A stretch of DNA of 55,582 nt from Prorocentrum cordatum. Its lineage: Eukaryota. Within the stretch, counting starts at the first letter, position 1. Each line of letters opens with the position of its first letter. Positions 15,795 to 34,318 of this stretch are shown one piece after another. A program made the translations under genes and the position numbers. The stretch spans positions 62,001 through 117,582 of the forward strand of contig CAUYUJ010000151.1 of assembly GCA_963575745.1 (NCBI GenBank), in the 5' to 3' direction. The notes under the pieces are model-generated. The model ran no database searches and had not been told where the DNA came from. It was given only the letters and a program-made list of their open reading frames with translations.

Positions 15795-15795
15795 A

Positions 15796-18163
15796 TGATG
15801 AGAAGGAGGAGGAGGAGGAGGAGGAGGAGGAGGAGGAGGAGGAGGAGGAGGAGAATGAGAGGAGGAGAGGAGGAGGTAGAAGGAGGAGGAGAGGAGGAGG
15901 GAGGAGGAGGAGGAGGGAACGAGGATGAGGAGGAGGAAAAGGAGGAGTAAGGAGGGGAGAAGAAGTATGATGATAAGAAGTGAAGCGGAAACAGGAGGAA
16001 GAAGAATAAGGAAGCATGAGGAGCAGGAGTAGGAGGAGGAGGAAGCAAGCGGGAGGAGGAGAGAAGGAGGGGAGAAGGAGGAGGACGAGGAGGAGAGGGA
16101 TGTAAGAGGAGGATGAGGAGAGGAGGAGAAGGAGGAGGAATAATGGAGGAAGAAGGAGGAAGATGAGGAGGGGGAGGAGGAGGAGGATGATAAGAGGAGG
16201 AGGAGGAGGGATAGAGAGAGAGAGAGGCAGGGGGGGGGGGCAGAGGGACGAGTTGTGGACGTTCTGCTACGAACGACATGCAGGAACGGGGGCAGGGGAG
16301 AGAGAAGAATGATGAGGCGGGACAAGGGGGAGGAGGAGGAGGAGGAGGAGGAGGAAGAAGAAGAGGAGGAGGAGGAAGAGGAGGAGGAGGAGGAGGGGGC
16401 GGAGGAGAATGAGGAAGATGGCGAAGGCGAGGGGAGGAGGAGGAGGAGGAGGAGGAGGAGGGGAGGAGTAGAAGGAGTAGGAGGAGGAAGGATGAGGCGG
16501 AGGCGGCGGAGGAGGGGAACGATGATGATGATGAGGAGGAGGGAGGAGGAGGAGAGCAGGAGGAGGCGGGACAAGAGAGGAGGAGGAGAAGGGAGAGGAG
16601 GAGAGGAGGATGATCGATGATGATGAGGAGGAGGAGAGAAGAGGACGGAGGAGGAGGGGGATGATGAGGAGGCGGAGGGGGAAGGAGGAGAGGGGAGGAA
16701 GAGATGAGGAAGAGGAGGAGGAAGATCAGAAGGATGTAGATGAGGAGGGGGAGGAGGACGAGGAGGAGGATGAGGGGGCGGAGGAGGAGGAGGAGGAGGA
16801 GCGAAGGAGGAGGAGGGAGGAGGAGGAGGACGAGGAGGAGGAGAGGAGGAGGGGCAGAGGAGGAGGAGGAGGCGGAAGTACGAGGAAGAGGAGGAGGAGA
16901 TGGAGGGGGGGGAGGAGGGGAGGAGGAAGCGAGGAGGAGGAGGAGGAGAGGAGGAGGAGGAGGAGGAGGAGGACGAGGAAGAGCGAGGAGGAGGGGGGAA
17001 GGATTTTCTTTTTTCGAGCTAGGAGGGAGGGAGGAACGGAAATGAGGGGAGAGGATCAGGAGGATGGGGAGGATGAGGAGTAGTAGGAGGGGGAGGAGGA
17101 GGAGAAGGAGGAGGAGGAGGAGGAGAAGGAGGAGGAGGAGGAGGAGGAGGAAGAGGAGCCGGAGGAGGAGGACGGGGATGATGGTGGGAAGGAGGGAGGG
17201 AGGGGGTGAGGGAGGGAGGGAGGAGGGGAGAGAGGGAGGGAGGGAGGAGGATGAGGAGAAGGAGGTGAAGTACGCGGAGTAGGAAGAGCAGGCGCAGGAG
17301 GGGAAGAAGAAGCGGAGCAGGAGGAGTAGGAGGAGCAAGAGTAGGTGGAGAGGGAGGCACGGGAGGAGAAGGAGGAGGAGACGAATGTGGAGGATTAGGA
17401 GGAAGAGGAGGAGGACTAGGAGTAGGAGGAGGTTGAGAAGGAAGATGAGGAGGAGGATCATGTGGAGGAGGAGGAGGAGGACAAAGGGACGATGCGTAGA
17501 CGTTCTGCTACGAATGACGTGCGGGATATGGGGACAGGAGAGAGGGGGGGGAAACAGAGGAATTTGGGAGGAGGAGGAGGAGGAGGCGGAGGAGAAGGAG
17601 GATGAGGAAGGGGGAGGAGGAGGAAGAGGAGGAGAAGGAGGAGGAGGAGGAGGAGAAGGAGGAGGAGGAGGAGAAGGAAGAGGAGGAGGAGGGGGATGAG
17701 GAGGAGGAACAGGAAGAGGAGGAGGAGGAGGAGACGGAGGAGGGGAAGTAGGCGGAGGAGTAGGAGGAGCAGGGGCAGGGGGAGAAACAACAAGAGGATC
17801 ATGAGACGTAGGCAGGGCAATAATAGGCGGAGCGGACGGAAACCGAGGAGGATGATGCGACGGATGAGGGTGATCCTGATGTTGTTCATGATGATGATGC
17901 TGATGCTGATGATGTTGATGATGCTGATCATGTTGATCATGATGATGATCATGATGACAATCGCGGTGATGATGCTGCTGCTGGTGATGATAATGCTGAC
18001 GATGATGATACTGATAATGCTGCTGATGATGAAAACGATGACGCTGATGATACTGATGCGTATGATGATGCTGCTGATGATGCAGATGATGATTATGATG
18101 ATGATGCTGATGATGTTGATGTTGATGATGCTGATGCTGATGCTGCTGCTGATGATGATGATC

Positions 18164-18223
<60 letters not shown>

Positions 18224-18547
18224 CTGATGATGATGATGATGATGGTGAGGATGAGGAGGGGATGATGATGAGGAGGGGCGAAGGAGGATAAATAATGAGG
18301 GGAACGATGAGGAGGAGGAGGACGAGGAGGCGGAGGTAGAAAAGAGGAGGATGGGGAGGAAGATGATCAGGAGGAGGAGGAGATGCAGGCAGGGCGGGGA
18401 AGACGGACGATGTGCGGACATTCTGCTACGAACGACGCGCAGGAGAGAAGACAGGGGAGAGAGGAACGGAGGGGGGAGGGACGAGGAGGAGGAGGAGGAA
18501 CGGACGAGGAAGAAGAAGAGGAAGAGGAAGAGGATGATGATGATGAT

Positions 18548-18609
<62 letters not shown>

Positions 18610-18645
18610 CGATGATACTGATGCCGATGCTGATGATGATGAGGA

Positions 18646-18676
<31 letters not shown>

Positions 18677-19046
18677 CAGGCGGGGGGGGGAGGAGAAGGA
18701 GGAGGAGGAGGAGGAGGAGGAGGAGGAGGAGGAGGAGGAGAACAGGCAGGGGGGAAGAGAACTAGGGACGGTTTGTGGACGTTCTGCTACGAACGACGTG
18801 CAGGAGACGGGGACAGAGGAGCAAGGAACGGAGGGAGGAGGAACAAGGAGGATGATGATGATGAGGAGGAGGAGAAGGATGAGAACGAGGAGGAGGAGGA
18901 GGAGAAGGAGGAAGAGGAGGAGAGGAGGAGGAGGAGGAGCAGGAGGAGGAAGAGGAGGAAGAAAAAGAAGAAGAGGAGGAAGATGATGAGGATGAGGATG
19001 AGGATGAGGATGAGGATGAGGATGAGGATGAGGATGAGGATGATGC

Positions 19047-19102
<56 letters not shown>

Positions 19103-19103
19103 C

Positions 19104-19142
<39 letters not shown>

Positions 19143-19490
19143 GGAGGAAGAGGAAGAGGAGGAGGAGGGCCGAGGAGGAAGAGGGACGAGGAGGAGGAGG
19201 AGAAGGAGGAGGAAGAGGGGGAGGAGGAGGACGAGGAGGAGGAGGAGGAGGAGCAGGAGGAGGAGGAGGAGGAGGAGGACGAGGAGGAGGAGCAGGAGGC
19301 GAAGGATGATGAGCGGAAGGAGGAGGAGGAGGAGGATGAGGAGGAGGGGGGAGGAGGAGAAGGAGGAGGAGGAAGAGGGGGAGGAAGAGGAGGAGGAGGA
19401 CGAGGAAGAGGAGGAGAAGGAGGGAGGGAGGAAGAGATGGGAGGGAGTAAGGTGAATATTGGACGGAGGAGGAAGCGGCGAAGGAGGAGG
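15796..19490. repeat. Compound (GAG)n/(GAT)n microsatellite field with embedded conserved ~45-bp motifs
   Basis: Direct inspection; it continues the field at 8600-9200 on the other side of the LINE. Confidence 0.9.
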
Positions 19491-20505
19491 ACTAGTGTCA
19501 ACCCAAGAGCCACCAACGATGATGGAGTACACCCTCCGTTCAAGCTCCCTTTTTCATAAACCCCTACAGCGGCTCATTTTTATTGAAGCATCTGCCTCGT
19601 TGGAAGACAACCGTTTGAAGACCCAGAAGCATGCCAAAACATTGTTTTCGGGATTTCCACGCCCCGGATCAACCTGACTGTTGCGTGATGACGATCCTGG
19701 ACCGCACCAGAACGCCATTCTTGGGATTCCAACACCGCGAATCAACGCAACCGTTGCGCCGGCAAACTCTGGAATCGAAACGCCATTCCTGGTACGTTCA
19801 TCGTGGGAATCCGTGGAATTCTGGCACATTTTATGACCGAATGCGCGTGGCGCTAAGGCGACAGCCACATTTTGAAAAGAAACCGCCCTAAACCCGTGAA
19901 GTTCTGGCAATTTGTAAAACGAATTTGTGCGGCGCTACCACGAGAACCACATTGCGAAAACGGATTGTCCTCAATCCGTGAAGCTCTTGCAAATCATTAA
20001 AGCGACTGTGCGCGGCGCTAAGGCGAGCGCCACATTTTGAAAACGGGTGATCCTCAATCCGTGAACTTCGTGCAACAATTTGAAACAAATGTGCGCGGCG
20101 CCCACACGAGAGACACATTTAAACAAAAATACGCCCGCCCTCAGTCCGTGAAACTCTTGCAAATTGTTGAAAAAAGTTTGCGCGGCACCAAAGCGAAAAC
20201 CACATTTTGAAACCTCCCGCCTGCAATCCGTGAAGTTTTTGCACATGTTTAAACCGAACTTCGCGGAACTAGGGCGAGAACAACACCCGCCCTCAATCCG
20301 TGAAACATTTCCAAATATTCAAACACATGCGCGCGGCGCTAGGGCGAGAGCCACATTGTGAAAACCACCCGCCCTCAATCTGTGAAGCAGTTGCCATTTG
20401 CTAAGCTTCAGAATCATAAACGGTGAGGAGGTGTCAGGCGAAACGCCCCGCCCGCCCTACAAACTTGCCTCGGGCTGCGACAGGGATAAATTGCGCTTAA
20501 GGAAA
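19491..20505 (-). repeat. Dispersed ~82-bp-array element (about 7 units)
   Basis: Same unit and flanks, reverse-complemented; 3' end GACACTAG|T. Confidence 0.8.
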
Positions 20506-23297: not shown

Positions 23298-25033
23298 CAA
23301 CCCACAATGCCTCCCAGACGCCCCCCCGAGCCCCAAGATTTCCCCCAAGAACCCAACGAAGCAAACATGTCAGAATCTCTTTTGGGCCGACGTGGAGGCC
23401 CCAAGAAGGCCTCCAGAAAACACCAAGGGCCAACCAAAAGGACCCGAAAAGGCGCCCTGGGAGGCCTCAAAAGCAAAACGCGGCAACCGCGAGTTCCCCA
23501 AGGGGTCGGCGGTGTGGCGTAAGCCTGAGACTCATAATTTGTAAGGAAGTCTCAGGCGAAACGCTCGGCCCGCCCTAACAACTGGCTCCGGGGTCCGACA
23601 GGGAGAAATTATTTACAAGTAAAAGGAGAGAAGGAGGGAGGGACGGAGGGAGGGAGGGAGGGAGGGAGGAGGCGGAGGAGGAGGAGGAACAGGATGAAGA
23701 AGAGGAGGCCGTGGAGCGTTGGAGGTAATGCTGCCTCTGCGGCGACTGTTGCACAGGGGGGTCGCCCTTTGGTGGGCGGGCTGGGCACGGGGGTGGGCTC
23801 GGTACAGCCAGTCCGCCCTGACCTTCGCCCCGTGCCCCCCCCTCCTCCCAACAGCGGCCTCTGTTTTGCATAGCCGACAGTGGTCGTTGCTTGTCTCTCC
23901 CTTTGTTTTCGCCTCGGGTCTTGCCCTGCGGGATCCGTGTTGCTGGTCAAACTGGTCATCAAGCTGGTCAAACAACATGAGGAAGCCTCTTCAGGCCCTC
24001 TTGGGGCCTCAAGAGGCCTCAAGAGGGGAAGAAGAGGGCCCAAGAGGCCTCTTGAGGCCTCAAGAGGCCTCAAGAGGAGGAAGAGTGCCTCAAGAGGCCT
24101 CAAGAGGCCTCTTGGGGCCATCGAGGAAGAAGAGGAGGCCTCTCGAGGCCCTCCTGGGGCCTCCGCAGAACCCGTCTCCGGAGCCTTCCGGCACGCCATG
24201 CTGGCCACCTCCTCGAGCCACGCCTGGCCCGCGGGCACGGGGCGCCCCTCCGAGGCCCACAAGAGGCCGTCTTCGTCTTCGTCGTCGTCGTCGTGCTGTC
24301 GTCGTCGTGCTGTCGCTGTCGTCGTCGTAATGTCGTCGTCGTGCTGTCGTCGTCGTCGTCGTCGTCCTCGAGGGGCGAACTTGCAGCCTCGAGTTTCGAG
24401 ACGGCGCGGGCCTCCCGCGAGCGACGGCAGCAAGGGGTCCTGCCAGAGGAACAAGCGCCTGGACTCCGCGCACCAGTGGGTCAAGTTCCCCGCGCCGTCT
24501 GGAGTCCACAGCGGCTCCTCGAGGCGTGGGTCCAAGAATGGAGATGGAGGCGCTGACTGAGTGATCGATGCACCCGTAGCCCAGCGGGCCCCTCGGACTG
24601 GAGGAGCGTCATATCATATCCAACCGTGAACGCTTCTCGCACACGTGCTCTTTTTGAGGGGAAGGTGCTCCTCCTCCTCCTCCTCCTTCTCCTCCTCCTC
24701 CTCCTCCTCCTCCTCCTTGGTCCTTCTCTTCGCTCCTCCTCCTCCTCCTCCTCTTCCTCCTCCTCCTCCTTCTCCTCAAACTCCTCCTCCTCCTCCTGCT
24801 CCTCCTCCTCCGACTCTTCTCTTCTCTTCTCTTCTCTTCTCTTCTCTTCTCTTCTCTTCTCCTCCTCCTCCTCCTGCTCCTGCTCCTCCTCCTCCTCCCT
24901 CCTCTCCTCCCTCCCTATCCCTCCCTCCCTCCACCCTCTCCTCTGCTCATCCCCCCTCCCTCCCTACCTCCCTCCCTCCCTCCCTTTTCCTCCTTCTCCT
25001 CCTCCTCCTTCCTCCTCCTCATCATCATCCTCC

Positions 25034-25073
<40 letters not shown>

Positions 25074-25353
25074 TCATCATCATTACCATCATGAGAATCA
25101 CCATCATCATCATCATCACCATCATCATCAGCAGCAGCATCATCATCAGCATCGTCATCATCATCAGCAGCATCATCATCAAAATCAGTATCAGCAGCAT
25201 CAGCATCATCACCATCGTCATCATCAGCTGCAGCATCATCATACTCATCATCATCAGCATCATCAGCATCCTCCTCCCCCACCTCCTCCTCCTCCTCCTC
25301 CTCATCATCATCATCAACATCTTCGTAATCATCATCATCATCATCATCAGCAT

Positions 25354-25384
<31 letters not shown>

Positions 25385-25489
25385 AGCAGCATCATCCTCG
25401 TCATCAACAACAGCACCAGCATCACAATCAGAAGCATCGGCATCAGCATCATCAGCATCATCGTCATCACCATCAGCAGCAATATGAGC

Positions 25490-25619
25490 ATCCCCACCCG
25501 ATCTTCTTGTCAGGCCAGCCTCTCGACGTTGTCTGTTCGCAGATCACTCTCCAGCCAAGACGCAGCTGCTCGGCGCGTCCGAAAGGGACGCCACGCCAGA
25601 GAGAAAATCCAGCGACCTC
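25490..25619 (-). repeat. Split direct repeat B2 (130 bp, 3' terminus of the DIRS element)
   Basis: Identical to 25756-25885; abuts the host (CAT)n tract. Confidence 0.95.
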
Positions 25620-25673
25620 TCCAGCGACTAACAGGAAGCATCTATACACAGGCTCAAGGGTGGGCGGGCTTGG

Positions 25674-25757
25674 TTGAGCCCAAAAACCCACGGAAGCGAT
25701 TAGCATCGACGGCCTGACCTCTAGACCGATGGGGAAAGACATGCACGCAAAGGATAT
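25674..25757 (-). repeat. Split direct repeat A2 (84 bp)
   Basis: Identical to 32092-32175; overlaps B1 by the AT dinucleotide. Confidence 0.95.
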
Positions 25758-25885
25758 CCCCACCCGATCTTCTTGTCAGGCCAGCCTCTCGACGTTGTCT
25801 GTTCGCAGATCACTCTCCAGCCAAGACGCAGCTGCTCGGCGCGTCCGAAAGGGACGCCACGCCAGAGAGAAAATCCAGCGACCTC
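25756..25885 (-). repeat. Split direct repeat B1 (130 bp)
   Basis: Identical to 25490-25619. Confidence 0.95.
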
Positions 25886-25918
25886 AAAGCATCTAACTCC
25901 AAAAGATTCTCCTGGCCG

Positions 25919-26716
25919 TCAGGCCGTCATTCGCATCAAGGCACGGTGCACTGAACAGAGCCTAGACTCACGGTACGCCTTCGCGAGCAAACTGGACAAT
26001 TTGGGCGGGTATGGTTCAGCGATCTTTGTCCAGAAGGCGCCAGACGGCGCCTTGCCCTCGAGGGCTTTGTGCGGCGCCAGCGAAAAAGAGCAACAGCCAC
26101 GGCCACTGCACTTACAGCTACACAGGGCGTCTAGGTTCACGTGCACATACATGACTCTGGTACGTTTTCTCCATTGCGTGCCAAAAGCACAGAAGTCAAA
26201 GTCGATCACCTTCACGTTGGTCTGCTTGGCGGCATGTACCGCCCACTTGGTCTGCCACACCCACGAGGTGGCTGGGTTCTCGATTGCCGCTGGGACTCCA
26301 CGCAGGGCGCACTCCAGAAAGAAGCTGAAGGAGAAGCACGCGAGCCTGTTCCCTAGCATCACTTTGAGCGAGTCGCCTGACGAGAGGCCAGGGAGTCCCA
26401 GCAAGTGTTGTCCATCACGCAAGGCCGGGGGCCCGTTGGGCCTATTCCGAGCCATGGACCAGGAACTGCAGGGCATACCCAGCCAGACACCCTGAAGCAG
26501 CTGCCCTCGAAGCCAGCCTCGAACGACACGTTGCACGCCTCGCCTGGAGAGGTCGGCCAGGCCGGGCTCGTGCTCCATGTCCAGCTCGAAAACACGTGGG
26601 GCCAGCCGAGAGGCCTGGCCTTGTCGCATGGCACGCGACCAGCTCCCAGAGCCACTGAAGATCTCCAGGTACACCTTCGACTTGGCGGTGTGGGCCCACG
26701 AGCTCAGATTCTGCAT
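25919..26716 (-). CDS. C5-cytosine DNA methyltransferase domain (265 aa if started at Met 26716; otherwise the C-terminus of pol)
   Basis: Ordered C5-MTase motifs: I LEIFSGSG, II ELD, IV GMPCSSWS (catalytic PC), VI IENP, VIII CAFG..WRKRT and X-like YPPKL. Confidence 0.88.
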   Translation of the reverse strand: MQNLSSWAHTAKSKVYLEIFSGSGSWSRAMRQGQASRLAPRVFELDMEHEPGLADLSRRGVQRVVRGWLRGQLLQGVWLGMPCSSWSMARNRPNGPPALRDGQHLLGLPGLSSGDSLKVMLGNRLACFSFSFFLECALRGVPAAIENPATSWVWQTKWAVHAAKQTNVKVIDFDFCAFGTQWRKRTRVMYVHVNLDALCSCKCSGRGCCSFSLAPHKALEGKAPSGAFWTKIAEPYPPKLSSLLAKAYRESRLCSVHRALMRMTA

Positions 26717-29700
26717 AGGGTGCTGCCAATAGTCACGGCGCAGCCGAGGGCCTGAGCTTGCTGCACTGGTCGTAGACGCTGGAGCTGCTCTTAGACACGG
26801 CCTCCCTTTGCATAGCGCTTGAGACTCCGATCGGACTCCCACCGTCCCCTTTTCTTGATGTCCCCGAACTCCCGAGCGCTGGTTAGCATCTCGTGGCTGG
26901 CACCGCCATGGCGCAGCTGGTACAGCACCGGGGGGCCCAGGGTCTCCAGGTCCAGGGCGGCGGACGCGAGGCTGAACGCCCGGGTCCATGACTTCATGCT
27001 CAACGCGAACAGCGGCTGCTCTGGGTGTCGGCCCAGCACCAGTCGGTCCAGCACCTGCTCCATCCAGCCGAACTCGGGGTTGTCCAGCAGCAGGCTGATG
27101 TCGTAATCCTTTGTCTTCGACCTCGCCTCGAGCTCGGCCGGGAACAGGAGGATGGAGTACTTGCTCAGGTGCCGGGGCCCGCACTTCACCGGCCGCACGA
27201 CCGAGACCACGCGCAGGGACAGCAGCTCGGATGGGCGCAGGTAGAGGATGAAGGCCAGCACAGACGCCGTCGCCGCCGCCTCGCACCCGTTCGTCGCCAT
27301 CCAGTCCGCCATCCACGCCACCACCGGCCAAGGCAAGGGCAGGCGAGCCCGGGGGGGCGCCATGGACTTCCAACCCTTCAGTGCCCGCTGCACGCGCGGC
27401 ATGTTGATCAACTTGGGCAGCAGGTCCAACCGGAAGTGGGTCACGGCAGCCGCCAGCTTCGACCCGTCCGGCGAGTCGTGGCCCTCGAAGTACAACTCGT
27501 TGAAGTACTCCAGGAGCGTCTCCTCCAGCTCTGGGATGGTGGACACTGGAAGCCTCGCAGCAGCGGCCCAGGTCAGGAAACGGTGGTATCGGGCCTGGTA
27601 GTCCAGCGTCGTCCTGTTGCCCACCGCCTTCTGCTCCAGGAACGACCGCTGTCCGGGCCCCCGCCAGTGGGCGCCCTCTGGATGCCTGGCCCGCCGCCGC
27701 TTCGCCCGGGCGGTCCGCTCCAGTGGCTCCGCTGCCAGGTCCAGCCCCAGTGTCGAAGCCGCCGCCGAGGAAGAGGTCCGCCCCGTCGGGGTCCCAGCTC
27801 GCCTCTTGCTCGAGGCCAGGCGGGGGCCCGAAGGTAGGCTGCCTCGCGCCAGGAGGCCGCCTGACGTCGGAGTCGGCGCCGTGGCTACCACCAACGGTGC
27901 TGGGGCAGCAGGTAGCTGCTGCCGACGAAGCATAGCCCACGCCTGGCAGGTTCCTGGAGGCGCGGTCCGCGGAGTTCCGCTCGGAAGGTACCCAGCGCCA
28001 AAAGAAGGCAGTGCCGCTAGCCAGCGAAAGAGCCGCCAGCTGCCGGCAGATGCGCCCCATCTCTGGGCGCGAGGACCGCCCCTTGGTGGCAGCCAGGATC
28101 GTTCCCAGACAATCGCCCAAGCACAGATGGCACCGGTTGAAGGATGAGAGACGCCGAAGGATATGCCGAACAGCCACCACCATCCCGCGACCTTCCAGAA
28201 CGACTTGAGGTTCCGAACGACACCATCTGTGCGACACGACCGGGTACCACCCCTCCGCCCAGACGCCCTCAGGGATCTCCGGGAACTCCTCATTCTCCAC
28301 CTGGGTCACCTCCTCCACCTCGAACGCGGAGCCTGACACAACGAACTCCTCATCCTCCTCCAAGTCCGTGATCACCTCCTGGAAGCCCCCGGGGTCCTCG
28401 AAGGTTGCGATCGACTCGGGCACGAAGGGGTCTCCAGAGCTCTGAGCCTTCAGGGCGAGGGACCGATGTGAGACGCCACCCTCCTGAGTCTTGCTGAATC
28501 TCCACCTCTCGTTGTACCGTGATAACTCCAGCGCAACAGCTGATGACGATGTTTTCTGAGTGACCCCCACGCCCCACCACGATGCGTCGACCATCGTGAG
28601 CCTGCTGTCAAACGCGGCTCCCGCGTCTCGGAAGCAGAACACGACAAGACTGGCGCACCAGCGGAGCTCGCGCAGGCAAGAGGGCCACAGCCGAGCAGTT
28701 CGCCCACCATACTGGGCAGAAAAAGCGTACAGCGAGTTGAGACAGGACAGAAGCTCGCGCCGAATCAGCGCCCTCGATGTAAAGTGTGAGACCACACGTG
28801 AGACCGTCTTGCCCGAAGCGAAGCCCTTCCGGCACAGCTCCAGGCAGGCCAGCCGTAGCTTCCACCGCAGCGCCGGGTTCAGCCCGATGATCGGGAACTT
28901 CTCGTCGAACTGCCAGCCCAGCGCGGCCGCGCCGAAACTGCACTCGACCCCGTGGGTGGGTAGGCCAGCCGCTCGGAGCTCAGAGTCGACCGCAGCGGCA
29001 GCCGCAGACGCCACCGACGGGTCGGTCGAGAGGCTCAGCGCGTTGTCCACGTACTCGGTGTGAATCACGTCGCTGGTCACGCCCGGCACAGGCCGCCTGT
29101 CTACGAAGCGGTTGGCCACGGTCAGCTGGGGCACCTGCAGCGCGGTCGCCTCCAACATCGTCTGGCAGATCCAGAGGCTGAAGGAGCAACCCATCGGCGG
29201 GCAACGGAAGCAGGGATAGACCACGTCCGTCCCGCTGAGAGGGCGCCCGTCCGAGGTGCGGTCAAGCCCCAGCAGGCCCGCGCGGCAGCTCGGCAGCGCA
29301 AAGTACCGTCGGAACTCCGGCGGCAGCAGCATCGTGTAGAAGGCGTCGGCCAGGTCCACCTCGGCCACGGCGATGGGCTTCCCGCTGTCCACGTGAAGGC
29401 CAGCGAAGCTCGCGCCAGACGCGAGGGCCACCTTGTCCGGGGCCCGGAAGTGCAGGGACGCATGTCTGCCGTCCAGGATGAGCCGCAGCTTCCCCGACTT
29501 CTTGTATACGAAGAACACACCCACACTGCACGCCTTGTCACTGTAGTAGTCGATGAGGTTCCGGCGCTCCAGGATCCGCAGCAGCTGGATGTACAGCTTG
29601 GGGTTCCTGAGCGCCGGGTCGATGTAGAGCTTCCGAGGACCGTCGGACTCGATCCGAGCCCGACCCTCGGACTGGGACAGCATCATATCATGAAGCCGTT

Positions 29701-30277
29701 CAACTATCTTGCGGCCAGCTCCTCCTCCCAGCGTGTCCAGCGCCACCGGCGTGAAACCCTCATCTGGGAGCGAGAGGCTGTTGATGTTATCAAAGCTGAA
29801 CGGAGCGACCGTGGCACTCTCGCCGGCGTAGTCGCTGAGAACTCGAAGCTCCTCAAGGGCTCCTGAGCCAGTCAATCCCTCCGGGGGCTTACCGAACCGT
29901 CGGACAGCGTCTCGAACGTTGTCCAAGGCCCGCTGCTGACCCGCAGAGACAGGCTGCGAGTGGTCGCCGTGGCTACAGGGCTGGCCGACGTACAGCTCGT
30001 TGAGGGCATTCACCACCTCACTCACCATGGCATCGGCATGACCCCGACGAAGACCACGACGGGCCACAGAACGTGTGCAAGCGAAGCTGTTCGCCTCTGA
30101 ACGGACCTGACGCTGTTGATCAGGACGTGGCAGTGGAAATAGATCACGTTGGCGCCCACAAGGCATGCCCTTGAAGTGCTCATCACCAGCGAGTGGCGGG
30201 CCACCACCGCTGGGCCCCCCTCCAGAAACGCGCGGACCGCCGGGGGGAAGCGGCCCGCGTGGTAGTACGCCCGTCAT
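25919..30277 (-). CDS. DIRS pol: reverse transcriptase + RNase H, open in frame to a C-terminal C5-MTase (1452 aa from ATG 30277)
   Basis: RT motifs VFFVYKKSGKLRLILDGR, VDLADAFY, PPMGCSFS and YVDN. RNase H motifs VDASWWG, LEGR, LGDC and WVPSERNSADRASR. Confidence 0.92.
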   Translation of the reverse strand: MTGVLPRGPLPPGGPRVSGGGPSGGGPPLAGDEHFKGMPCGRQRDLFPLPRPDQQRQVRSEANSFACTRSVARRGLRRGHADAMVSEVVNALNELYVGQPCSHGDHSQPVSAGQQRALDNVRDAVRRFGKPPEGLTGSGALEELRVLSDYAGESATVAPFSFDNINSLSLPDEGFTPVALDTLGGGAGRKIVERLHDMMLSQSEGRARIESDGPRKLYIDPALRNPKLYIQLLRILERRNLIDYYSDKACSVGVFFVYKKSGKLRLILDGRHASLHFRAPDKVALASGASFAGLHVDSGKPIAVAEVDLADAFYTMLLPPEFRRYFALPSCRAGLLGLDRTSDGRPLSGTDVVYPCFRCPPMGCSFSLWICQTMLEATALQVPQLTVANRFVDRRPVPGVTSDVIHTEYVDNALSLSTDPSVASAAAAAVDSELRAAGLPTHGVECSFGAAALGWQFDEKFPIIGLNPALRWKLRLACLELCRKGFASGKTVSRVVSHFTSRALIRRELLSCLNSLYAFSAQYGGRTARLWPSCLRELRWCASLVVFCFRDAGAAFDSRLTMVDASWWGVGVTQKTSSSAVALELSRYNERWRFSKTQEGGVSHRSLALKAQSSGDPFVPESIATFEDPGGFQEVITDLEEDEEFVVSGSAFEVEEVTQVENEEFPEIPEGVWAEGWYPVVSHRWCRSEPQVVLEGRGMVVAVRHILRRLSSFNRCHLCLGDCLGTILAATKGRSSRPEMGRICRQLAALSLASGTAFFWRWVPSERNSADRASRNLPGVGYASSAAATCCPSTVGGSHGADSDVRRPPGARQPTFGPPPGLEQEASWDPDGADLFLGGGFDTGAGPGSGATGADRPGEAAAGQASRGRPLAGARTAVVPGAEGGGQQDDAGLPGPIPPFPDLGRCCEASSVHHPRAGGDAPGVLQRVVLRGPRLAGRVEAGGCRDPLPVGPAAQVDQHAARAAGTEGLEVHGAPPGSPALALAGGGVDGGLDGDERVRGGGDGVCAGLHPLPAPIRAAVPARGLGRAAGEVRAPAPEQVLHPPVPGRARGEVEDKGLRHQPAAGQPRVRLDGAGAGPTGAGPTPRAAAVRVEHEVMDPGVQPRVRRPGPGDPGPPGAVPAAPWRCQPRDANQRSGVRGHQEKGTVGVRSESQALCKGRPCLRAAPASTTSAASSGPRLRRDYWQHPMQNLSSWAHTAKSKVYLEIFSGSGSWSRAMRQGQASRLAPRVFELDMEHEPGLADLSRRGVQRVVRGWLRGQLLQGVWLGMPCSSWSMARNRPNGPPALRDGQHLLGLPGLSSGDSLKVMLGNRLACFSFSFFLECALRGVPAAIENPATSWVWQTKWAVHAAKQTNVKVIDFDFCAFGTQWRKRTRVMYVHVNLDALCSCKCSGRGCCSFSLAPHKALEGKAPSGAFWTKIAEPYPPKLSSLLAKAYRESRLCSVHRALMRMTA
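26791..27933 (-). CDS. Tyrosine recombinase nested within pol in another frame (380 aa from ATG 27933)
   Basis: Catalytic set LYLRPSEL (R), SKT (K), YQLRHGGAS (H/Y-x-x-R), GRW and KRY (Y nucleophile). Preceded by a core-binding-like region (TTLDYQARYHRFLTW...). The start codon is uncertain. Confidence 0.92.
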   Translation of the reverse strand: MLRRQQLPAAPAPLVVATAPTPTSGGLLARGSLPSGPRLASSKRRAGTPTGRTSSSAAASTLGLDLAAEPLERTARAKRRRARHPEGAHWRGPGQRSFLEQKAVGNRTTLDYQARYHRFLTWAAAARLPVSTIPELEETLLEYFNELYFEGHDSPDGSKLAAAVTHFRLDLLPKLINMPRVQRALKGWKSMAPPRARLPLPWPVVAWMADWMATNGCEAAATASVLAFILYLRPSELLSLRVVSVVRPVKCGPRHLSKYSILLFPAELEARSKTKDYDISLLLDNPEFGWMEQVLDRLVLGRHPEQPLFALSMKSWTRAFSLASAALDLETLGPPVLYQLRHGGASHEMLTSAREFGDIKKRGRWESDRSLKRYAKGGRV

Positions 30278-31728
30278 TTTCGCAAGGCCCGCTGCTCCTC
30301 GCGGGCCTTGCGTACTTGCTTCAACACCGAAGCGTCCCTCTCCACCTCCTTCGCCACGTGCTCCAAGAGCAAGGGACAGATCATGCTCTCCCCGTGGTCT
30401 CGGCTGAGACCGGTGAAGACAGCGCTCTCGTCGATGAAACCGAAACTCAGCAAGCTGTGACTGCCGCTCCCCCGACCACGACCCTTCTTGCCAGTCTTCT
30501 TGTTCTCGTTGGCCTCGCCGCCGTCCCCGACGCCATGGCCACCGTGGTGCGGGTCCCGGTCCATCACGTAGACGTACTCGTACATCTGACACTTCCGAAG
30601 GATCTGCTCGGCGCCCGCGATGTTCGGCAGGTCGAGGCCGTCCCAGCACGCCATCGTGTAGATCGCGCGCATCCCGGCCTCGTAGTCATTCACGCCGTAG
30701 TCGTCGGCCGCCAGCCCGAGGGTCGCCTTCCAGAACCTGAAATGGTCCAGCGGCCCTCCCTGCCGACGGTCGATGAACTTGCAGCACCACAAGCAGGTCC
30801 GCGGACCGGGGATGTGCCAGTCCACGAAGGCCTCCTCGGTGAAGCTGGCGACGGCGTCGCGCCACTGCCGCAGCAGCCTCCCGCCTGGGACCGCAGGGTT
30901 CGGCAGGATCCCCATCAGACGGGCGTCCGACGCGGCCTCTCGCCCAGCGTACTCCTGGGCCGATCCTGAGATCGAGCGGATCGTCACCCAGGAGCCGTCG
31001 GCCAGCGGCATGAGCCCGACGGACCCTCGCAGCACCGAGCCAGCGGGCGGGGCCACGGCAGTCCCGCGCGCGCCAGCCGTCGTCGACTCGACCAGCACCC
31101 ACATGGCGGCGGCGGCCATGCCTGCCCCCGCAGGAGCGGCAGCTCCGCCAGCAGCACCTGCGCCAGCTCCACCCGCTCCTCCGACGGCAGCACCAGGTAC
31201 CCCTCCAGCGGCGACCAGAGCAGCAGCCTGCGCCCCTGGGGCCACCACCGCCGCCACATCACCTGCCTCCGCCAGGGCGGCAGGGCCGCCCTGACCGAAG
31301 GTCAGTGGGATGAGGAAAGGCCCCGCCGGCGCTCCCAGCCCAAGACGATGGTGGTCGGCCGCCAGCGCCGCCCTGCAGTAGTCCACGGCCGCCTGGTCGA
31401 TCTGCTGCTGCTCTTGCTGCGTCAAGTCCCGCCTGAAGCGGTGTGAGTTCGCACCTCGAATCCCTGGCGGGAAGGACGCCCGCGTGCTGGCGTAGCGCAC
31501 GGCAATGATGTCGCTGCCGTCGCACGCGTAGTCCTCCTCGTAGATGTCGGTGTCCACGGTGCAGATCAGCACAACGTGCGGTGACCCGACCTCAGCTGGA
31601 ACTCTCGCCCGACGCCCCAAGATCAGCCGCTGGTGCCACAATGGCTCGCCGTCGTAGCGAACCCAAGCCCATTGCTGCATCTCCGGCGCTGCCGCCACTG
31701 CTGGGGCCACGATCGCCGCCGCCATCAT
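30274..31728 (-). CDS. DIRS ORF1, Gag-like protein (484 aa)
   Basis: Long non-repetitive ORF with two globular-looking regions joined by an Ala/Gly linker, in the gag position. Its TGA overlaps the pol ATG (ATGA at 30277-30274). Confidence 0.8.
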   Translation of the reverse strand: MMAAAIVAPAVAAAPEMQQWAWVRYDGEPLWHQRLILGRRARVPAEVGSPHVVLICTVDTDIYEEDYACDGSDIIAVRYASTRASFPPGIRGANSHRFRRDLTQQEQQQIDQAAVDYCRAALAADHHRLGLGAPAGPFLIPLTFGQGGPAALAEAGDVAAVVAPGAQAAALVAAGGVPGAAVGGAGGAGAGAAGGAAAPAGAGMAAAAMWVLVESTTAGARGTAVAPPAGSVLRGSVGLMPLADGSWVTIRSISGSAQEYAGREAASDARLMGILPNPAVPGGRLLRQWRDAVASFTEEAFVDWHIPGPRTCLWCCKFIDRRQGGPLDHFRFWKATLGLAADDYGVNDYEAGMRAIYTMACWDGLDLPNIAGAEQILRKCQMYEYVYVMDRDPHHGGHGVGDGGEANENKKTGKKGRGRGSGSHSLLSFGFIDESAVFTGLSRDHGESMICPLLLEHVAKEVERDASVLKQVRKAREEQRALRK

Positions 31729-32068
31729 GACGACGCTTGCAGGTCAGCCACGCGCCGCCCCACCAGACGTACACGTACCAGCCAATGAGGCCCAGGAACA
31801 GCAGCTCGTTCACCAGCACGACCAGCCAGAAGGAGGACGCCGCGATGTCGGCCCCGGCCTCCTGCTCTGCCGGCGGCGCCGGGTTGGCAGGCGCCGGCCG
31901 TCCTCCCGGGCACGCCGGGCAGCCTGGGCACGGCGGGCAGGCCGCACACCCAGGGAACCCCGGACACGCCGGGATCGTGATCGAAGGGCAGCGCTGCAAA
32001 TTGCCGCCCCAGAGATATGCAAGAGCCCCCTGCCACGCGTATTGGGCTGCGGGCCAGAGGAAATCCAT
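31592..32068 (-). CDS. DIRS ORF0: 158-aa Cys/Pro-rich protein with a predicted transmembrane segment
   Basis: First ATG after repeat A1 (MDFLWP...). Contains CPSITIPACPGFPGCAACPPCPGCPACP, then the hydrophobic FWLVVLVNELLFLGLIGWYVYVWW followed by basic KRR. Overlaps the gag start in another frame. Confidence 0.6.
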   Translation of the reverse strand: MDFLWPAAQYAWQGALAYLWGGNLQRCPSITIPACPGFPGCAACPPCPGCPACPGGRPAPANPAPPAEQEAGADIAASSFWLVVLVNELLFLGLIGWYVYVWWGGAWLTCKRRHDGGGDRGPSSGGSAGDAAMGLGSLRRRAIVAPAADLGASGESSS

Positions 32069-32090
32069 TCGCACTGCCTGGATGCGAATT

Positions 32091-32112
32091 CTTGAGCCCA
32101 AAAACCCACGGA
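32091..32112 (-). promoter_or_regulatory. Spliced-leader-like 22-mer / candidate trans-splice acceptor at the 3' end of repeat A1
   Basis: The minus strand reads TCCGTGGGTTTTTGGGCTCAAG versus DinoSL DCCGTAGCCATTTTGGCTCAAG (17/22, ungapped). It ends in AG, 22 nt upstream of the first ATG (32068). Confidence 0.65.
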
Positions 32113-32175
32113 AGCGATTAGCATCGACGGCCTGACCTCTAGACCGATGGGGAAAGACATGCACGCAAAGGATAT
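32092..32175 (-). repeat. Split direct repeat A1 (84 bp, 5' terminus of the DIRS element)
   Basis: Identical to 25674-25757 by base-by-base comparison. Confidence 0.95.
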
Positions 32176-33204
32176 ACTCATTATCAGCATCATCAGCAGC
32201 ATCACCGTCATCACCATAAGCAGCATCCTCATCGACATCACAACACCATCATCATCAGCATGATCATCAGCATCAGCATCATCAACATCATCATCAGCAG
32301 AAGTATCAGCACGAGTATCGCCATCATCATCAACAACATCATCATCACTCTGATCAGCCTCATCACCATCATCGTCAGCATCATCAACATCATCATCATC
32401 AGCATCATCAAAATCATCCCCATCCTCCTTCTCCTCCTCCTCCTCCCCCCTCCTCCTCCTCCTTATCCCCCTCCTCCTCCTCCTCCTCCTCCTCCTCCTC
32501 CTTCTCCTCCTCCTCCTCCTCCTCCTCCTCCCCGTTCCTCCGTCTCCTCCTACTCCTTTTCCTCCTTCTGTTCTTCCTCCTCCGCCTCCTCCTCCTGCTC
32601 CTCCTCCTCCTCCCACCTCCTCCCTCCACCTCCTCCTACCCTCCTCTCCTCCTCCTCCTCCTCCTTCCCCCCTCCTCCTCCTTCTCTTCCTCCTCCTCCT
32701 CCTCCTCCTCTTCATCCTGCTCCTGCATCATGCCTCCTTCAACCCTCCCTCATCCCTCCCTCATCCCTCCATTCCTCCTCCCTCCTACCTCCCGCCTCCT
32801 GCCTCCCGCTTCCTGCCTCCCTCGCTCCTCTTTCCGCCCTGTCTCCCTCCCTTCCTCCCTCCCTCCCTCCCTCCCCCTCCTCGCCTCCTCCTCCTCCTCC
32901 TCCTCCTCCTCCTCCTTCCCATCTTCCTCCTCCGCCACCTCCTCCTCCCCCCTCCTCCTCCTCCTCCTCTTCCGCCTCCTTCTCCTCCTCCGCCTCTTCC
33001 CTCTCTCATCCCTGTCGCACTGGTTGGTAAGCTCACACGCGGAGTGCACACGCGACTGGGTGTTTCGGCGGTCCGAGGACCAACCCCGCTATCACAACCT
33101 GGGGGGAAACACAGCCTCCTTCCTCCCTCCCTCCAGCCATCCCTTCCTCCAGCCCTCCTGCTGCTTCTCAGCCTCCTCCTCCTTCTCCACCTCCTCCATT
33201 CCTT

Positions 33205-34318
33205 CTCCTTATAGATAACTCCCCCCCTTTCGCACCCAAAGGCCAGTTGGTAGGGCGGGCTGGGCGTGTTGCTTGAGACTTCCTCACCGTTTATGGCACT
33301 AAAGGTTAAACGTGACAACCGTTTCACAGATGGAGGGCGGGTCGTTTTCAGAATGTGGCTCTCGTCTTCGCGCCGCCGCGCACACTCGTCTGAAACATTT
33401 GCAAAAGCTTCACGAATTGAGAGCGGGTCGTTTTCAAAAGGTTGATCTCGCTTTGGCGCCGCGCACATTCGTCTCAAACACTTGCAGAAGTTTCACGGAT
33501 TGAGGGCGTGTCGTTTTCAAATGTGGCTCTCGCCTTAGAGCCGTGCACACTCTCTTTAAACATTGCAACAGCTTCACGAATTGAGGGCAGTTCCTTTTCA
33601 ATATGTGGATATCGCCTTAGCGCCGCGCAAATTCTTGTGAAACGTTGCAAGTGCTTCACATATTGAGGGCGGTTCCTTTTCAAAATGTAGCTCCCGCCCT
33701 AGCGCCGCGCACATTCGTTTTTAATATAAAAACGCAGGAGCTTCACGGATTGAGGGCGCTTCCGTTTGAAGATGTGGTTGTCGCCTTGGCGACGCGCACA
33801 TTCGCTGAAACAAATGCACGAACTTCACGGATTGATGGCGTTTCCTTTTGAAGATGTGGCTCTCGCGTTAGCGACGCGCACGTTCGTTGAAACAAATGCA
33901 AGAGCTTCACGGATTGAGGGCGTTTCCTTTTGAAATTGTGGCGATCGCCGTAGCGCCACGCACATTCGCTTCAAACATTTGCAGCAGGTTCAAGGATTCC
34001 CATGGTTAACGCACCAGAAGTGGTGTGTTGGAAGGATTCAGGATTACGCGGGCGCAACATTTATGTTGATTCGCTGTGTTGAAATCCCCAACATGCCGTT
34101 CTAGCACGATTCTGGATCGTCAAGGCGTAGCAGTAAGGTTGGTATGTGGCGATGAAATCCCGAGAACCATGTTTTGGCACGCTTCAGGATATTCAAGCTG
34201 TTGTCTTCCAGCGAGGCAGTTCCCTCAATGGACATGAACCGTTATAGGGGCCCATGAAGAGGGAGCTTGGAGGGAGGGTTAATTCCAACTTCGTTGATGA
34301 CTCTTGGGTTTCCACTGG
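33205..34318 (+). repeat. Dispersed ~82-bp-array element (about 8 units)
   Basis: TTCAC starts at 33323, 33409, 33492, 33573, 33655, 33742, 33824 and 33906; 3' end TCCACTGG|T. Confidence 0.8.

What the first reader, a model, noticed from the sequence alone, without database searches (positions are those of the whole stretch)
25651..32112. The DIRS terminal repeat A ends in a spliced-leader mimic, with an anti-SL octamer after the 3' copy: a retrotransposon possibly built around host trans-splicing
Seen: on the element strand A1 ends TCCGTGGGTTTTTGGGCTCAAG (32112-32091), a 17/22 ungapped match to the 22-nt dinoflagellate SL DCCGTAGCCATTTTGGCTCAAG, with the first 5 and last 8 bases exact. A1/A2 identity stops exactly there. 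A1 ends ...CTCAAG (an AG acceptor, 22 nt before the first ATG), whereas A2 ends ...CTCAAC (no AG). Fifteen nt past A2 lies CTTGAGCC (25658-25651), which is complementary to the SL 3' end and can also hairpin with the end of A2. Known: dinoflagellate mRNAs lose their 5' outron to SL trans-splicing, and split-repeat YR elements regenerate their ends by strand transfer between A and B copies. Inference: the element RNA is trans-spliced at the A1 AG, and the SL-like end of A2 lets cDNA copied from the real SL jump to A2 and rebuild the lost 5' end. I know of no description of this mechanism. A simpler alternative is that A contains an old SL relic with no function.
Basis: partly seen in the sequence, partly recalled or inferred. 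Interest (0 to 1): 0.9.

Follow-up and report, generated by a model that had tools for sequence, protein, structure and literature searches.

The report
Spliced-leader-like end of a dinoflagellate retrotransposon repeat
A young tyrosine-recombinase retrotransposon in a Prorocentrum-like dinoflagellate genome has a terminal repeat that ends in a degraded copy of the host's spliced leader, which looks like inherited element sequence and not something rebuilt from the host leader at each round of copying.

Summary
On the minus strand, repeat A1 (32175-32092) plus G32091 ends in a 22-mer that matches DinoSL at 17/22. The A2 copy matches at 16/22. A1/A2 identity stops at CTCAA. The first ATG lies 22 nt downstream, and CTTGAGCC lies 15 nt past A2.

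The element is a 6.69-kb split-direct-repeat (A-coding-B-A-B) tyrosine-recombinase retrotransposon. It is closest to the published SymbioDIRS-Dnmt3, but its proteins are 91-96% identical to Prorocentrum cordatum proteins.

A match of 17/22 or better is expected 0.097 times per window by chance, so it is the placement of the match that carries the weight.

New evidence comes from a diverged second copy, seen through database protein P0227. It keeps the same non-SL letters and the AG. A metagenome contig does the same. So 3 of 3 A copies that adjoin the internal region carry mimic letters, not true SL letters. A version in which the template switch happens within the shared last 8 nt survives.

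No RNA data, whole genome or DNA of related families could be reached, so trans-splicing at 32091 remains untested.

Best reading: the segment is SL-derived and is now inherited as part of repeat A (confidence 0.5). Interest is moderate.

The parts
32092..32175 (-). Repeat A1 (84 nt), 5' terminal repeat of the element
   Evidence: 100% identical to 25674-25757
32091..32112 (-). SL-like 22-mer at the A1/internal boundary (17/22 to DinoSL); ends in AG
   Evidence: the only match of 17/22 or better in the window
32067..32089 (-). Inverted repeat ATTCGCA-N9-TGCGAAT directly after A1, overlapping the ORF0 start codon
   Evidence: Read; part of the MFE fold (the fold as a whole is not better than shuffles). 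In P0227 the residues over the stems are kept and the two changed residues fall in the loop.
31592..32068 (-). ORF0, 158 aa, Cys/Pro-rich with a hydrophobic segment; begins 22 nt after the SL-like end
   Evidence: GC3 of 0.83, like the other ORFs; homologues P0227 (E 8e-31) and P0228 (E 4.5e-4)
30274..31728 (-). ORF1, 484 aa, no family hit (gag position)
25919..30028 (-). Pol frame: RT at the N-terminus, DNMT-like domain at the C-terminus, open throughout
   Evidence: no stop from 30685 to 25919; RVT_1 E 4.1e-5, 23.8 bits, below the 29.6-bit cut-off; 15 P. cordatum relatives
26791..28305 (-). Tyrosine recombinase ORF in another frame, embedded in the Pol frame
   Evidence: 61 relatives, some named integrase, one with PF00589; invariant R257, K297, H366, Y398 in 37 sequences
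25919..26716 (-). C5-cytosine-methyltransferase-like domain (265 aa)
   Evidence: 4261 relatives, many of them C-terminal in proteins of about 1400 aa; family profile hits DNMT2 4h0n at E 7.8e-4 over motifs I-IV; no Pfam hit
25756..25885 (-). Repeat B1 (130 nt), overlapping A2 by AT inside GGATATCC
25674..25757 (-). Repeat A2
25673..25694 (-). SL-like 22-mer of A2 (16/22), ending AC
25620..25673 (-). Spacer between A2 and B2 (54 nt). Only about the first 29 nt are unique. The rest is TAGATGCTT (shared with the sequence before B1) plus a 16-nt insertion.
25651..25658 (-). CTTGAGCC, complementary to the last 8 nt of DinoSL and of A1+G
   Evidence: GGCTCAAG or its complement occurs 5 times in the window
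25490..25619 (-). Repeat B2, 3' terminal repeat

Best explanation
The stretch 32175-25490 (minus strand) is one young copy of a tyrosine-recombinase retrotransposon with split direct repeats. Its order is A1 - ORF0 - ORF1 - Pol (RT ... DNMT-like), with an embedded YR ORF - B1A2 - spacer - B2. It sits in a Prorocentrum cordatum-like genome.

The last 21 nt of repeat A are a degraded copy of the dinoflagellate spliced leader. It was most likely captured once, when a trans-spliced element RNA was reverse transcribed. Since then it has been inherited as ordinary element sequence and has not been re-copied from the host leader in each cycle.

It forms the edge of A next to the internal region. As in the accepted logic for split-repeat and DIRS elements, I infer that it belongs to the overlap through which the 3' end of the minus-strand cDNA pairs with A2. 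The cDNA is then extended over the rest of A2 and B1, which regenerates a full A1 and the B|A junction. The recombinase then uses that junction at GGAT|ATCC.

- **Shown:** the anatomy, the repeat identities, the SL resemblance and its placement, and the retention of the mimic letters in other copies.
- **Inferred:** the capture origin, the position of the RNA 5' end, and the strand-transfer role.
For: - **Anatomy.** The layout is A-coding-B-A-B. The repeats are 84/84 and 130/130 identical. There is a 2-nt AT overlap at B|A and no target-site duplication. This matches the SymbioDIRS-Dnmt3 layout quoted in passages of PMC5890265.
- **Host.** All 15 RT relatives are P. cordatum proteins, the best at 91-96% identity. 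That species uses dinoSL (PMC10666404 passages).
- **SL resemblance.** It is 17/22, ends exactly at the A boundary, and lies in sense orientation 22 nt before an ORF with coding-like GC3 and homologues. The expected rate of such a match is 0.097 per 111 kb of both strands.
- **Inherited, not re-copied.** A1 equals A2 at all five non-SL positions.
- **P0227.** Its residues 19-33 equal the translation of window 32117-32066 with one T fewer in the T-run, at 13 of 15 residues. P-W-V fixes the non-SL letters G6, G8 and T9. Meanwhile the middle of A differs by several frame changes.
- **Metagenome contig.** X2 record 7 joins A to the internal region. It differs from the window at 2 bases over 197 nt, and one of those lies in B.
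- **Precedent.** Genomic DinoSL relicts in front of retro-copied ORFs are well documented (passages of PMC6050394, PMC7245778 and PMC12014239).
Against: - **A2 unexplained.** A single capture at the 5' end explains an SL copy next to the internal region. It does not by itself explain why A2 carries the same copy. A second rare event must be assumed.
They are: the SL resemblance ends within 1 nt of the A boundary; the next base is G only in A1; and the spacer holds the 8-mer complement, including the C that pairs with that G.
- **Weak by published criteria.** The longest exact word shared with DinoSL is 8 nt. A published screen used BLASTN word size 9 (10.1101/783902, Methods passage), and another allowed at most 1 mismatch (PMC7245778, Methods passage).
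- **Missing data.** There is no RNA evidence on where the transcript starts. Only two other copies were seen, and both only indirectly.
Confidence: 0.5

Rival explanations
1. The element RNA is SL trans-spliced at the AG of A1, so A1 is lost from the RNA. The minus-strand cDNA copies only the 3' part of the real SL (GGCTCAAG). It then switches, through the 7-8 nt shared with the end of A2, onto A2 and copies A2 and B1. In effect the host SL serves as a very short R region. CTTGAGCC in the spacer may pair with the SL to bring the RNA 5' end next to A2.
For: - The SL resemblance ends at the A boundary, and the last 8 nt are exact in A1+G.
- The G (A1) versus C (A2) difference is as expected if that G comes from the SL or from the retained acceptor.
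- The 8-mer complement lies 15 nt past A2.
- The AG is kept in 3 of 3 A1-type copies: the window, X2 record 7 and P0227.
- ORF0 starts 22 nt after the AG.
- The mimic is kept in a copy whose A repeat is otherwise rearranged.
- Position 6 is G, so the internal AG that published relicts use as acceptor is absent (DinoRL definition, PMC12014239 passage). This leaves only the terminal AG.
Against: - It requires that the switch always happens before the mismatch at position 14. All 3 of 3 A1-type copies have mimic letters, not SL letters.
- Pairing with A2 is only 7 nt plus scattered matches.
- The proposed hairpin is not the favoured fold, and the fold of that region is not better than shuffles (z = -1.6).
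- Given the end of A, the octamer's complementarity to the SL is not independent evidence.
- No RNA evidence exists.
Confidence: 0.2
2. Leader mimicry without trans-splicing. Transcription starts at or near T32112, so the element RNA begins with an SL-like leader of its own. The T-run acts as a TTTT-type core promoter or leader element, and the 21 nt act as the R-like overlap with A2.
For: - Passages of PMC6050394 propose that retroposed DinoSL relicts act as promoters through a conserved TTT(G) motif.
- The T-run and its flanks are kept in P0227's copy, though with T4 instead of T5.
- It explains the A1 = A2 identity directly.
Against: - No transcript start data exist.
- It makes the start of the SL-like 22-mer the meaningful boundary, whereas it is the end that coincides with the repeat boundary.
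- The T-run length varies between copies.
Confidence: 0.1
3. Chance resemblance. The end of A is conserved for reasons of its own and merely looks like the SL.
For: - A match of 17/22 or better is expected 0.097 times per window, and 16/22 or better 0.80 times.
- The match fails published relict criteria.
- GGCTCAAG or its complement occurs 5 times in the window.
- In the more distant ORF0 relative P0228, the 18 codons before the aligned start cannot encode GGCTCAAG in any frame. This is my own reading.
Against: - The per-position rate is about 9e-7 (derived). The match ends exactly at a repeat boundary, in sense orientation, in front of the first ORF of a retroelement whose RNA would normally receive this very leader.
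- The mismatches cluster centrally, with both ends exact.
Confidence: 0.08

Closest known systems
SymbioDIRS-Dnmt3 retrotransposons of Symbiodinium (de Mendoza et al. 2018, PMC5890265; passages read)
   Same: A-coding-B-A-B repeats. A DNMT-like domain in the same frame as the RT. A separate tyrosine-recombinase ORF. An RT too divergent for Pfam. A dinoflagellate host.
   Different: The host is Prorocentrum-like, not Symbiodiniaceae. The DNMT assignment here rests on a weak profile hit. An extra ORF0 is present. In that paper's main text the word 'spliced' occurs 0 times and 'trans-splic' once, in a general remark. The three supplements I could read hold no element sequences, and one supplement was too large to read.
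Relict DinoSL (DinoRL) in front of dinoflagellate retrogenes (passages of PMC6050394, PMC7245778 and PMC12014239)
   Same: An SL-derived sequence in genomic DNA just upstream of an ORF that was copied through RNA.
   Different: Here it lies inside a terminal repeat of a retrotransposon and is present twice. It is much more degraded (17/22, longest exact word 8 nt). It lacks the internal AG at positions 6-7 that relicts normally use as acceptor.
DIRS-1 internal complementary region and end regeneration (Cappello model; tested in PMC7192593, passages read)
   Same: A sub-genomic transcript whose missing ends are rebuilt from internal copies. A possible role for small hairpins.
   Different: DIRS-1 has inverted repeats and a complementary ICR. 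This element has direct split repeats, where the internal B1A2 is identical to the circle junction, not complementary to it.
Retroviral/LTR R-region minus-strand transfer (established knowledge, recalled)
   Same: A short terminal homology lets the cDNA 3' end move to a second copy and restore untranscribed repeat sequence.
   Different: In the rival model the 5' homology would be supplied by a host trans-spliced leader. I found this in none of my searches.
Trypanosomatid L1Tc/ingi Pr77 promoter-ribozyme (PMC1874656 and PMC3383444; search listing and abstracts only)
   Same: A retrotransposon in an SL trans-splicing host with a dedicated 5' end solution.
   Different: Pr77 produces unspliced transcripts from an internal promoter. 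It shows no SL mimicry, and the element is non-LTR.

Membership tests
DIRS-order tyrosine-recombinase retrotransposon with split direct repeats (PAT/Ngaro-type architecture) | Split direct repeats A1 ... B1 A2 B2 | tested here: met
   A 84/84 and B 130/130 identical, in the order A1-internal-B1A2-spacer-B2. Definition taken from PMC4157794 passages.
DIRS-order tyrosine-recombinase retrotransposon with split direct repeats (PAT/Ngaro-type architecture) | Reverse transcriptase | tested here: inconclusive
   RVT_1 at E 4.1e-5 and 23.8 bits, below the 29.6-bit gathering score. PMC5890265 states that dinoflagellate DIRS RTs align poorly with Pfam.
DIRS-order tyrosine-recombinase retrotransposon with split direct repeats (PAT/Ngaro-type architecture) | Tyrosine recombinase instead of a DDE integrase | tested here: met
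   61 relatives, some named integrase, one carrying PF00589. Invariant R, K, H and Y, and a nearly invariant RHGGAS...RGRW...Y pattern, in 37 sequences. The profile-versus-PDB search gave only a weak XerD hit, E 0.14. No direct Pfam or PDB hit.
DIRS-order tyrosine-recombinase retrotransposon with split direct repeats (PAT/Ngaro-type architecture) | No target-site duplication; insertion through the B|A circle junction | tested here: met
   The flanks read ...AATGAGT / AT / GCTCATATT, with a 2-nt AT shared by the B end and the A start. One insertion only.
DIRS-order tyrosine-recombinase retrotransposon with split direct repeats (PAT/Ngaro-type architecture) | RNase H domain | tested here: inconclusive
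   No family hit for residues downstream of the RT at E up to 5. No structure was predicted.
SymbioDIRS-Dnmt3 | C5-DNMT domain within the Pol reading frame | tested here: inconclusive
   The frame is open from the RT to the C-terminal domain. The family profile hits DNMT2 4h0n at E 7.8e-4 over motifs I-IV. 0 of 41 family members hit any Pfam model. Whether it belongs to the Dnmt3 clade was not tested.
SymbioDIRS-Dnmt3 | Host in Symbiodiniaceae | tested here: not met
   All 15 RT relatives are Prorocentrum cordatum proteins.
Relict DinoSL | Sequence match to DinoSL by published criteria | tested here: not met
   17/22, longest exact word 8 nt. A search allowing up to 3 mismatches found 0 matches. 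Published screens used word size 9 or at most 1 mismatch.
Relict DinoSL | Lies just upstream of an ORF copied through RNA, in an SL-using host | tested here: met
   22 nt before ORF0 of a retroelement. Host use of dinoSL from PMC10666404 passages.
SL RNA gene | SL exon followed by a GT donor | tested here: not met
   A1 is followed by AATT and A2 by CCAA. No Rfam match inside the element at E up to 1.
SL trans-spliced mRNA 5' end at 32090 | True DinoSL joined to 32090 in RNA | not testable with these tools
   No RNA holder was listed. No genome is held.

The most novel reading that the evidence does not exclude
The element has handed the definition of its RNA 5' end to the host. It is transcribed within host transcription units and cut out by SL trans-splicing at the AG that ends A1. 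It then uses the last 8 nt or so of the host leader as a minimal R region to jump onto the SL-like end of A2, helped by the anti-SL octamer. It would then be a retrotransposon whose replication depends on spliced-leader trans-splicing.
Probability: 0.18. Interest if true: 0.85.

Novelty: new variant of a known kind. Interest (0 to 1): 0.45.

Why it matters
Nearly all dinoflagellate mRNAs lose their original 5' end to the spliced leader. A retrotransposon that must copy its own RNA has to cope with that loss, and I found no account of how these elements do so.

This element places an SL-like sequence exactly where its 5' repeat meets the internal region, and again at the internal repeat copy. 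A diverged relative keeps it. If the sequence takes part in strand transfer, it would be the first case of a retroelement that uses a host trans-spliced leader as part of its replication signals. If it is only an inherited relict, it still shows that SL capture happens in retrotransposons as well as in retrogenes, and it extends DNMT-carrying DIRS-like elements from Symbiodiniaceae to Prorocentrum.

The question can be tested directly with existing kinds of data: SL-primed or long-read RNA, and an alignment of all genomic copies.

Tried and rejected
- **Whole genome.** None is held for this window.
- **RNA evidence.** The look-up of sequencing runs listed no RNA holder. It listed 5 DNA holders from 4 studies, the best holding 0.44 of the words. 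Read laying on 4 DNA runs gave contigs only. 803 of the 'other letter' rows were not shown, so the letters of most copies over the SL-like 22-mer could not be read.
- **DNA of relatives.**
  - Viral contigs with the RT protein, the RT alignment and the YR alignment: no relative.
  - Genome contigs with the RT alignment and with the 21-nt mimic: nothing.
  - Viral contigs with the mimic: nothing.
  - Metagenome contigs gave two short contigs. L001 is 96% identical in the RT but starts 1416 nt upstream of it, which is about 730 nt short of A1. L002 is also too short.
- **Other copies in the window.** None by blastn or tblastn.
- **Earlier scan notes.** Nothing by place, sequence or words.
- **de Mendoza 2018 supplements.** The three readable files hold no element sequences, and one file was too large to read.
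It is not the predicted fold, and the folds of both A ends are not better than shuffles.
- **Rfam.** The only matches are C/D-box-like hits in the flanking (GAT)n repeats, all below the gathering score.
- **Neighbouring gene orientation**, as a test of read-through transcription. 26 long ORFs gave no credible Pfam hit, and the 1411-codon frame at 15341-19573 is a translated microsatellite. Nothing can be said.
- **P0228** (a distant ORF0 relative). Its upstream residues are too ambiguous at third positions to say whether an SL-like sequence is present. I rejected it as evidence either way, except that GGCTCAAG cannot be encoded in its last 18 upstream codons.
- **Cap-derived extra G** at the A1/internal boundary (X2 contig has one more G). 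I considered it but could not distinguish it from a simple inherited indel.


Full report
**1. What is in the sequence**

Read on the minus strand, the element runs from 32175 to 25490, 6.69 kb.

- Repeat A1 (32175-32092) is 84/84 identical to A2 (25757-25674).
- Repeat B1 (25885-25756) is 130/130 identical to B2 (25619-25490).
- B1 and A2 overlap by the dinucleotide AT, in the middle of the palindrome GGATATCC.
- The same AT is shared by the end of B2 and the start of A1. The genomic flanks read ...AATGAGT[AT]GCTCATATT..., and there is no target-site duplication.
- The insertion lies in a long (GAT)n/(GGA)n microsatellite tract.
- The order is A1 - internal - B1A2 - 54-nt spacer - B2. This is the split-direct-repeat layout of PAT/Ngaro-type elements (definition in passages of PMC4157794).
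- The window holds no other copy, by blastn or tblastn.

**2. Coding content**

- **ORF0** (32068-31592, 158 aa) is Cys/Pro-rich with a hydrophobic segment. It has no family hit. Its GC3 is 0.83, like the other ORFs at 0.73-0.84. It has two database relatives, P0227 and P0228.
- **ORF1** (31728-30274, 484 aa) has no hit.
- **Pol frame.** A frame with no stop runs from 30685 to 25919.
  - Its N-terminal part gives a weak RVT_1 hit (E 4.1e-5, 23.8 bits against a cut-off of 29.6).
  - It has 15 relatives, all Prorocentrum cordatum proteins, the best at 91-96% identity.
  - Its C-terminal 265 aa belong to a large family: 4261 representatives at E up to 1e-3, many at the C-terminus of proteins of about 1400 aa.
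  - The profile of that family hits DNMT2 (4h0n) at E 7.8e-4 over motifs I-IV. Neither the protein nor any of 41 family members hits Pfam.
- **Tyrosine recombinase.** A second ORF in another frame (28305-26791) lies inside the Pol frame.
  - It has 61 relatives, some named integrase, one carrying PF00589.
  - R257, K297, H366 and Y398 are invariant in 37 aligned sequences.
  - The profile search against PDB gave only a weak XerD hit (E 0.14).

This architecture matches the SymbioDIRS-Dnmt3 elements described for Symbiodinium: 'A-coding region-B-A-B', a DNMT in the Pol ORF and a separate tyrosine recombinase ORF (passages of PMC5890265). The host here is Prorocentrum-like.

**3. The observation**

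- The 22-mer at 32112-32091 matches DinoSL at 17/22, and the A2 copy at 16/22. The consensus is as printed in PMC6050394, PMC7245778 and PMC12014239.
- These are the only matches of 16/22 or better in the window.
- The mismatches are at positions 6, 8, 9, 10 and 14. The first five and last eight bases are exact.
- A1/A2 identity ends at CTCAA. The next base is G in A1, which completes CTCAAG, and C in A2.
- The first ATG, the start of ORF0, is 22 nt further on.
- CTTGAGCC lies 15 nt after A2.

**4. Is it more than chance?**

- In 300 first-order Markov simulations, a match of 17/22 or better occurred 0.097 times per window (both strands). A match of 16/22 or better occurred 0.80 times. The match as such is not remarkable.
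- A search with up to 3 mismatches finds nothing.
- By the criteria used in published relict screens (word size 9, or at most one mismatch) it would not be called a relict.
- What is improbable is the placement. The per-position rate is about 9e-7, and the match ends exactly at a repeat boundary. It is in sense orientation, directly before the first ORF of a retroelement, in an organism that uses this leader (passages of PMC10666404: dinoSL on 4.95% of assembled transcripts).
- All five mismatches fall in the central nine positions. The odds are 126 of 26334 placements by my own calculation, and the pattern was noticed after the fact.
- An 11-mer, TTTGGCTCAAG, at 13163-13153 looks like an unrelated relict.

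I put pure chance at under 10%.

**5. New evidence from other copies**

DNA of relatives could not be fetched (see Tried and rejected). Two indirect views were obtained.

- **P0227.** This is a 124-aa protein called on a 2273-nt ENA contig, found with ORF0 (E 8e-31). It reads from inside repeat A, through the SL-like segment and the following inverted repeat, into ORF0 of a diverged copy.
  - Its residues 19-33, SLPWVLGSRIRNKAV, equal the translation of window 32117-32066 with one T fewer in the T-run, at 13 of 15 residues.
  - The two differing residues fall in the loop of the inverted repeat.
  - W (TGG) and V (GTN) fix three of the five non-SL letters: G6, G8 and T9.
  - S-R is consistent with ...TCAAGA, so the AG appears to be kept.
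  - Upstream, the same protein switches between two reading frames of the window's A repeat and has extra residues. So the middle of A has several indels while its SL-like end is kept.
- **X2 record 7.** In run X2, a marine metagenome, one 305-nt contig joins 31985-32091 to 25674-25870 with one extra base at the join.
  - This means B, then A, then the internal region.
  - It differs from the window at 2 bases over the 197 nt of A+B, and one of those lies in B (25839).
  - Its SL-like segment is therefore the mimic too.

**6.

- The model says the RNA is trans-spliced at the AG of A1, the cDNA copies the real SL, and this cDNA end pairs with the SL-like end of A2.
- In any such scheme the cDNA copy of the real SL stays in the product. 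The new A1 should then end in true SL letters, while A2 keeps the mimic.
- Instead, 3 of 3 A copies that adjoin the internal region (the window, X2 record 7, P0227) carry mimic letters. In the window, A1 and A2 are identical at all five non-SL positions.
- The letters of A1 were therefore templated by an A copy, not by the host leader. This contradicts the model as written.
- It does not exclude a version in which reverse transcriptase switches to A2 while still inside the last eight nucleotides, which the SL, A1 and (for 7 of 8) A2 share. That version would also explain why G follows A1 but not A2.
- I could not test trans-splicing itself. No RNA run was listed.

**7. Best explanation and its weaknesses**

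- I read the 21 nt as SL-derived sequence that entered the element once, through reverse transcription of a trans-spliced RNA. It is now inherited as the internal-proximal edge of repeat A.
- By analogy with the Cappello model and its test in DIRS-1 (passages of PMC7192593) and with retroviral R regions (recalled), this edge is the natural place for the overlap that lets the cDNA 3' end pair with A2 and restore the untranscribed part of A1.
- **Weaknesses.**
  - One capture does not explain the copy in A2.
  - The coincidence of the SL end with the repeat boundary, the G/C asymmetry and the anti-SL octamer all fit the rival better.
- The octamer is not independent evidence. Given the end of A, any inverted repeat of that end is automatically 'anti-SL'.
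- The predicted fold of the region prefers other pairings between the spacer and the mimic (GUGGG/CCCAC, GGGCU/AGCCC) and is not better than shuffles.
- A further possibility is that the T-run and its flanks serve as a promoter or leader element, as proposed for relicts in PMC6050394.

**8. Novelty**

- DNMT-carrying DIRS-like elements and relict DinoSLs are each known.
- Three full-text searches turned up no description of an SL-like sequence in a dinoflagellate retrotransposon repeat, or of a leader used for strand transfer:
  - dinoflagellate / spliced leader / retrotransposon / DIRS;
  - spliced leader / retrotransposon / trans-spliced / strand transfer / terminal repeat;
  - DinoSL / retrotransposon / relic / transposable element / LTR.
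- The main text of PMC5890265 does not contain the word 'spliced'.
- A Symbiodinium preprint states that functions of genes with DinoSL relicts and of RT-genes do not overlap (10.1101/783902 passage).
- One supplement of PMC5890265 was too large to read and might hold element sequences.

**9. Verdict**

- The proposed mechanism fails its simplest prediction. A narrower form survives and can be tested directly.
- The element itself is a new member of a known kind in a new host genus.
- Interest is moderate (0.45). It would be high if SL-joined template RNAs or SL-chimeric A1 ends were found.

Noticed in passing
window 25750-25762, 25485-25495 and 32170-32185: The B|A junction is the palindrome GGATATCC, and the crossover dinucleotide AT is shared by the B end and the A start. 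The target reads AATGAGT[AT]GCTCATATT, itself nearly palindromic (ATGAG..CTCAT), inside a (GAT)n tract. There is no target-site duplication. This looks like a tyrosine-recombinase core site.
   Followed up: partly
window 31985-32091 joined to 25674-25870 (run X2, record 7): A 305-nt metagenome contig reads B, A, then the internal region, with one extra G at the A/internal boundary. It could be a circle junction, a tandem or nested insertion at the B|A site, or an assembly path through the 84-nt repeat.
   Followed up: no
window 31592-32068 (-): ORF0 encodes a 158-aa Cys/Pro-rich protein (CPxCPGCPACPGG) with a hydrophobic segment. It has coding-like GC3 and two database relatives that share both features. 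It is not mentioned in the passages of the SymbioDIRS description that I read.
   Followed up: partly
window 26717-27901 (-): The Pol frame stays open for about 395 codons while the YR ORF is read in another frame. Base composition there follows the YR frame (Pol-frame GC1/2/3 of 0.85/0.66/0.53). The linker between RT and the DNMT-like domain may therefore be overprinted or kept open only for read-through.
   Followed up: partly
window 32067-32089 (-): A perfect 7-bp inverted repeat, ATTCGCA-N9-TGCGAAT, lies directly after A1 and covers the first two bases of the ORF0 ATG. In P0227's copy the residues over both stems are unchanged, and the two changed residues lie in the loop.
   Followed up: partly
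window 25620-25644 and 25886-25895 (-): Repeat B really extends 9 nt further upstream (TAGATGCTT). The B2 copy then has a 16-nt insertion that duplicates TCGCTGGA from the start of B. This leaves only about 29 nt of truly unique spacer after A2.
   Followed up: no
window 25645-25700 (-): Besides CTTGAGCC, the spacer holds AGCCC and GCCCAC, which pair with GGGCU and GUGGG of the SL-like segment. This is the predicted minimum-energy fold (-20.2 kcal/mol, z = -1.6).
   Followed up: partly
window 13153-13174 (-): TTTGGCTCAAG, an exact 11-mer of the 3' end of DinoSL (15/22 overall). It may be an ordinary relict leader, and it lies in a long open frame with no family hit.
   Followed up: no
window 15341-19573, 24600-25490, 32180-33000 and 33323-33998: There are very long trinucleotide microsatellites (TCC, ATC, GAG). 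They create stop-free frames of up to 1411 codons that are not genes. There is also an 82-nt tandem repeat of about 8 copies.
   Followed up: partly
L001 (metagenome contig, 2944 nt): A JGI metagenome contig encodes the first 509 RT residues at 96% identity, so near-identical copies of this family occur in environmental DNA.
   Followed up: no
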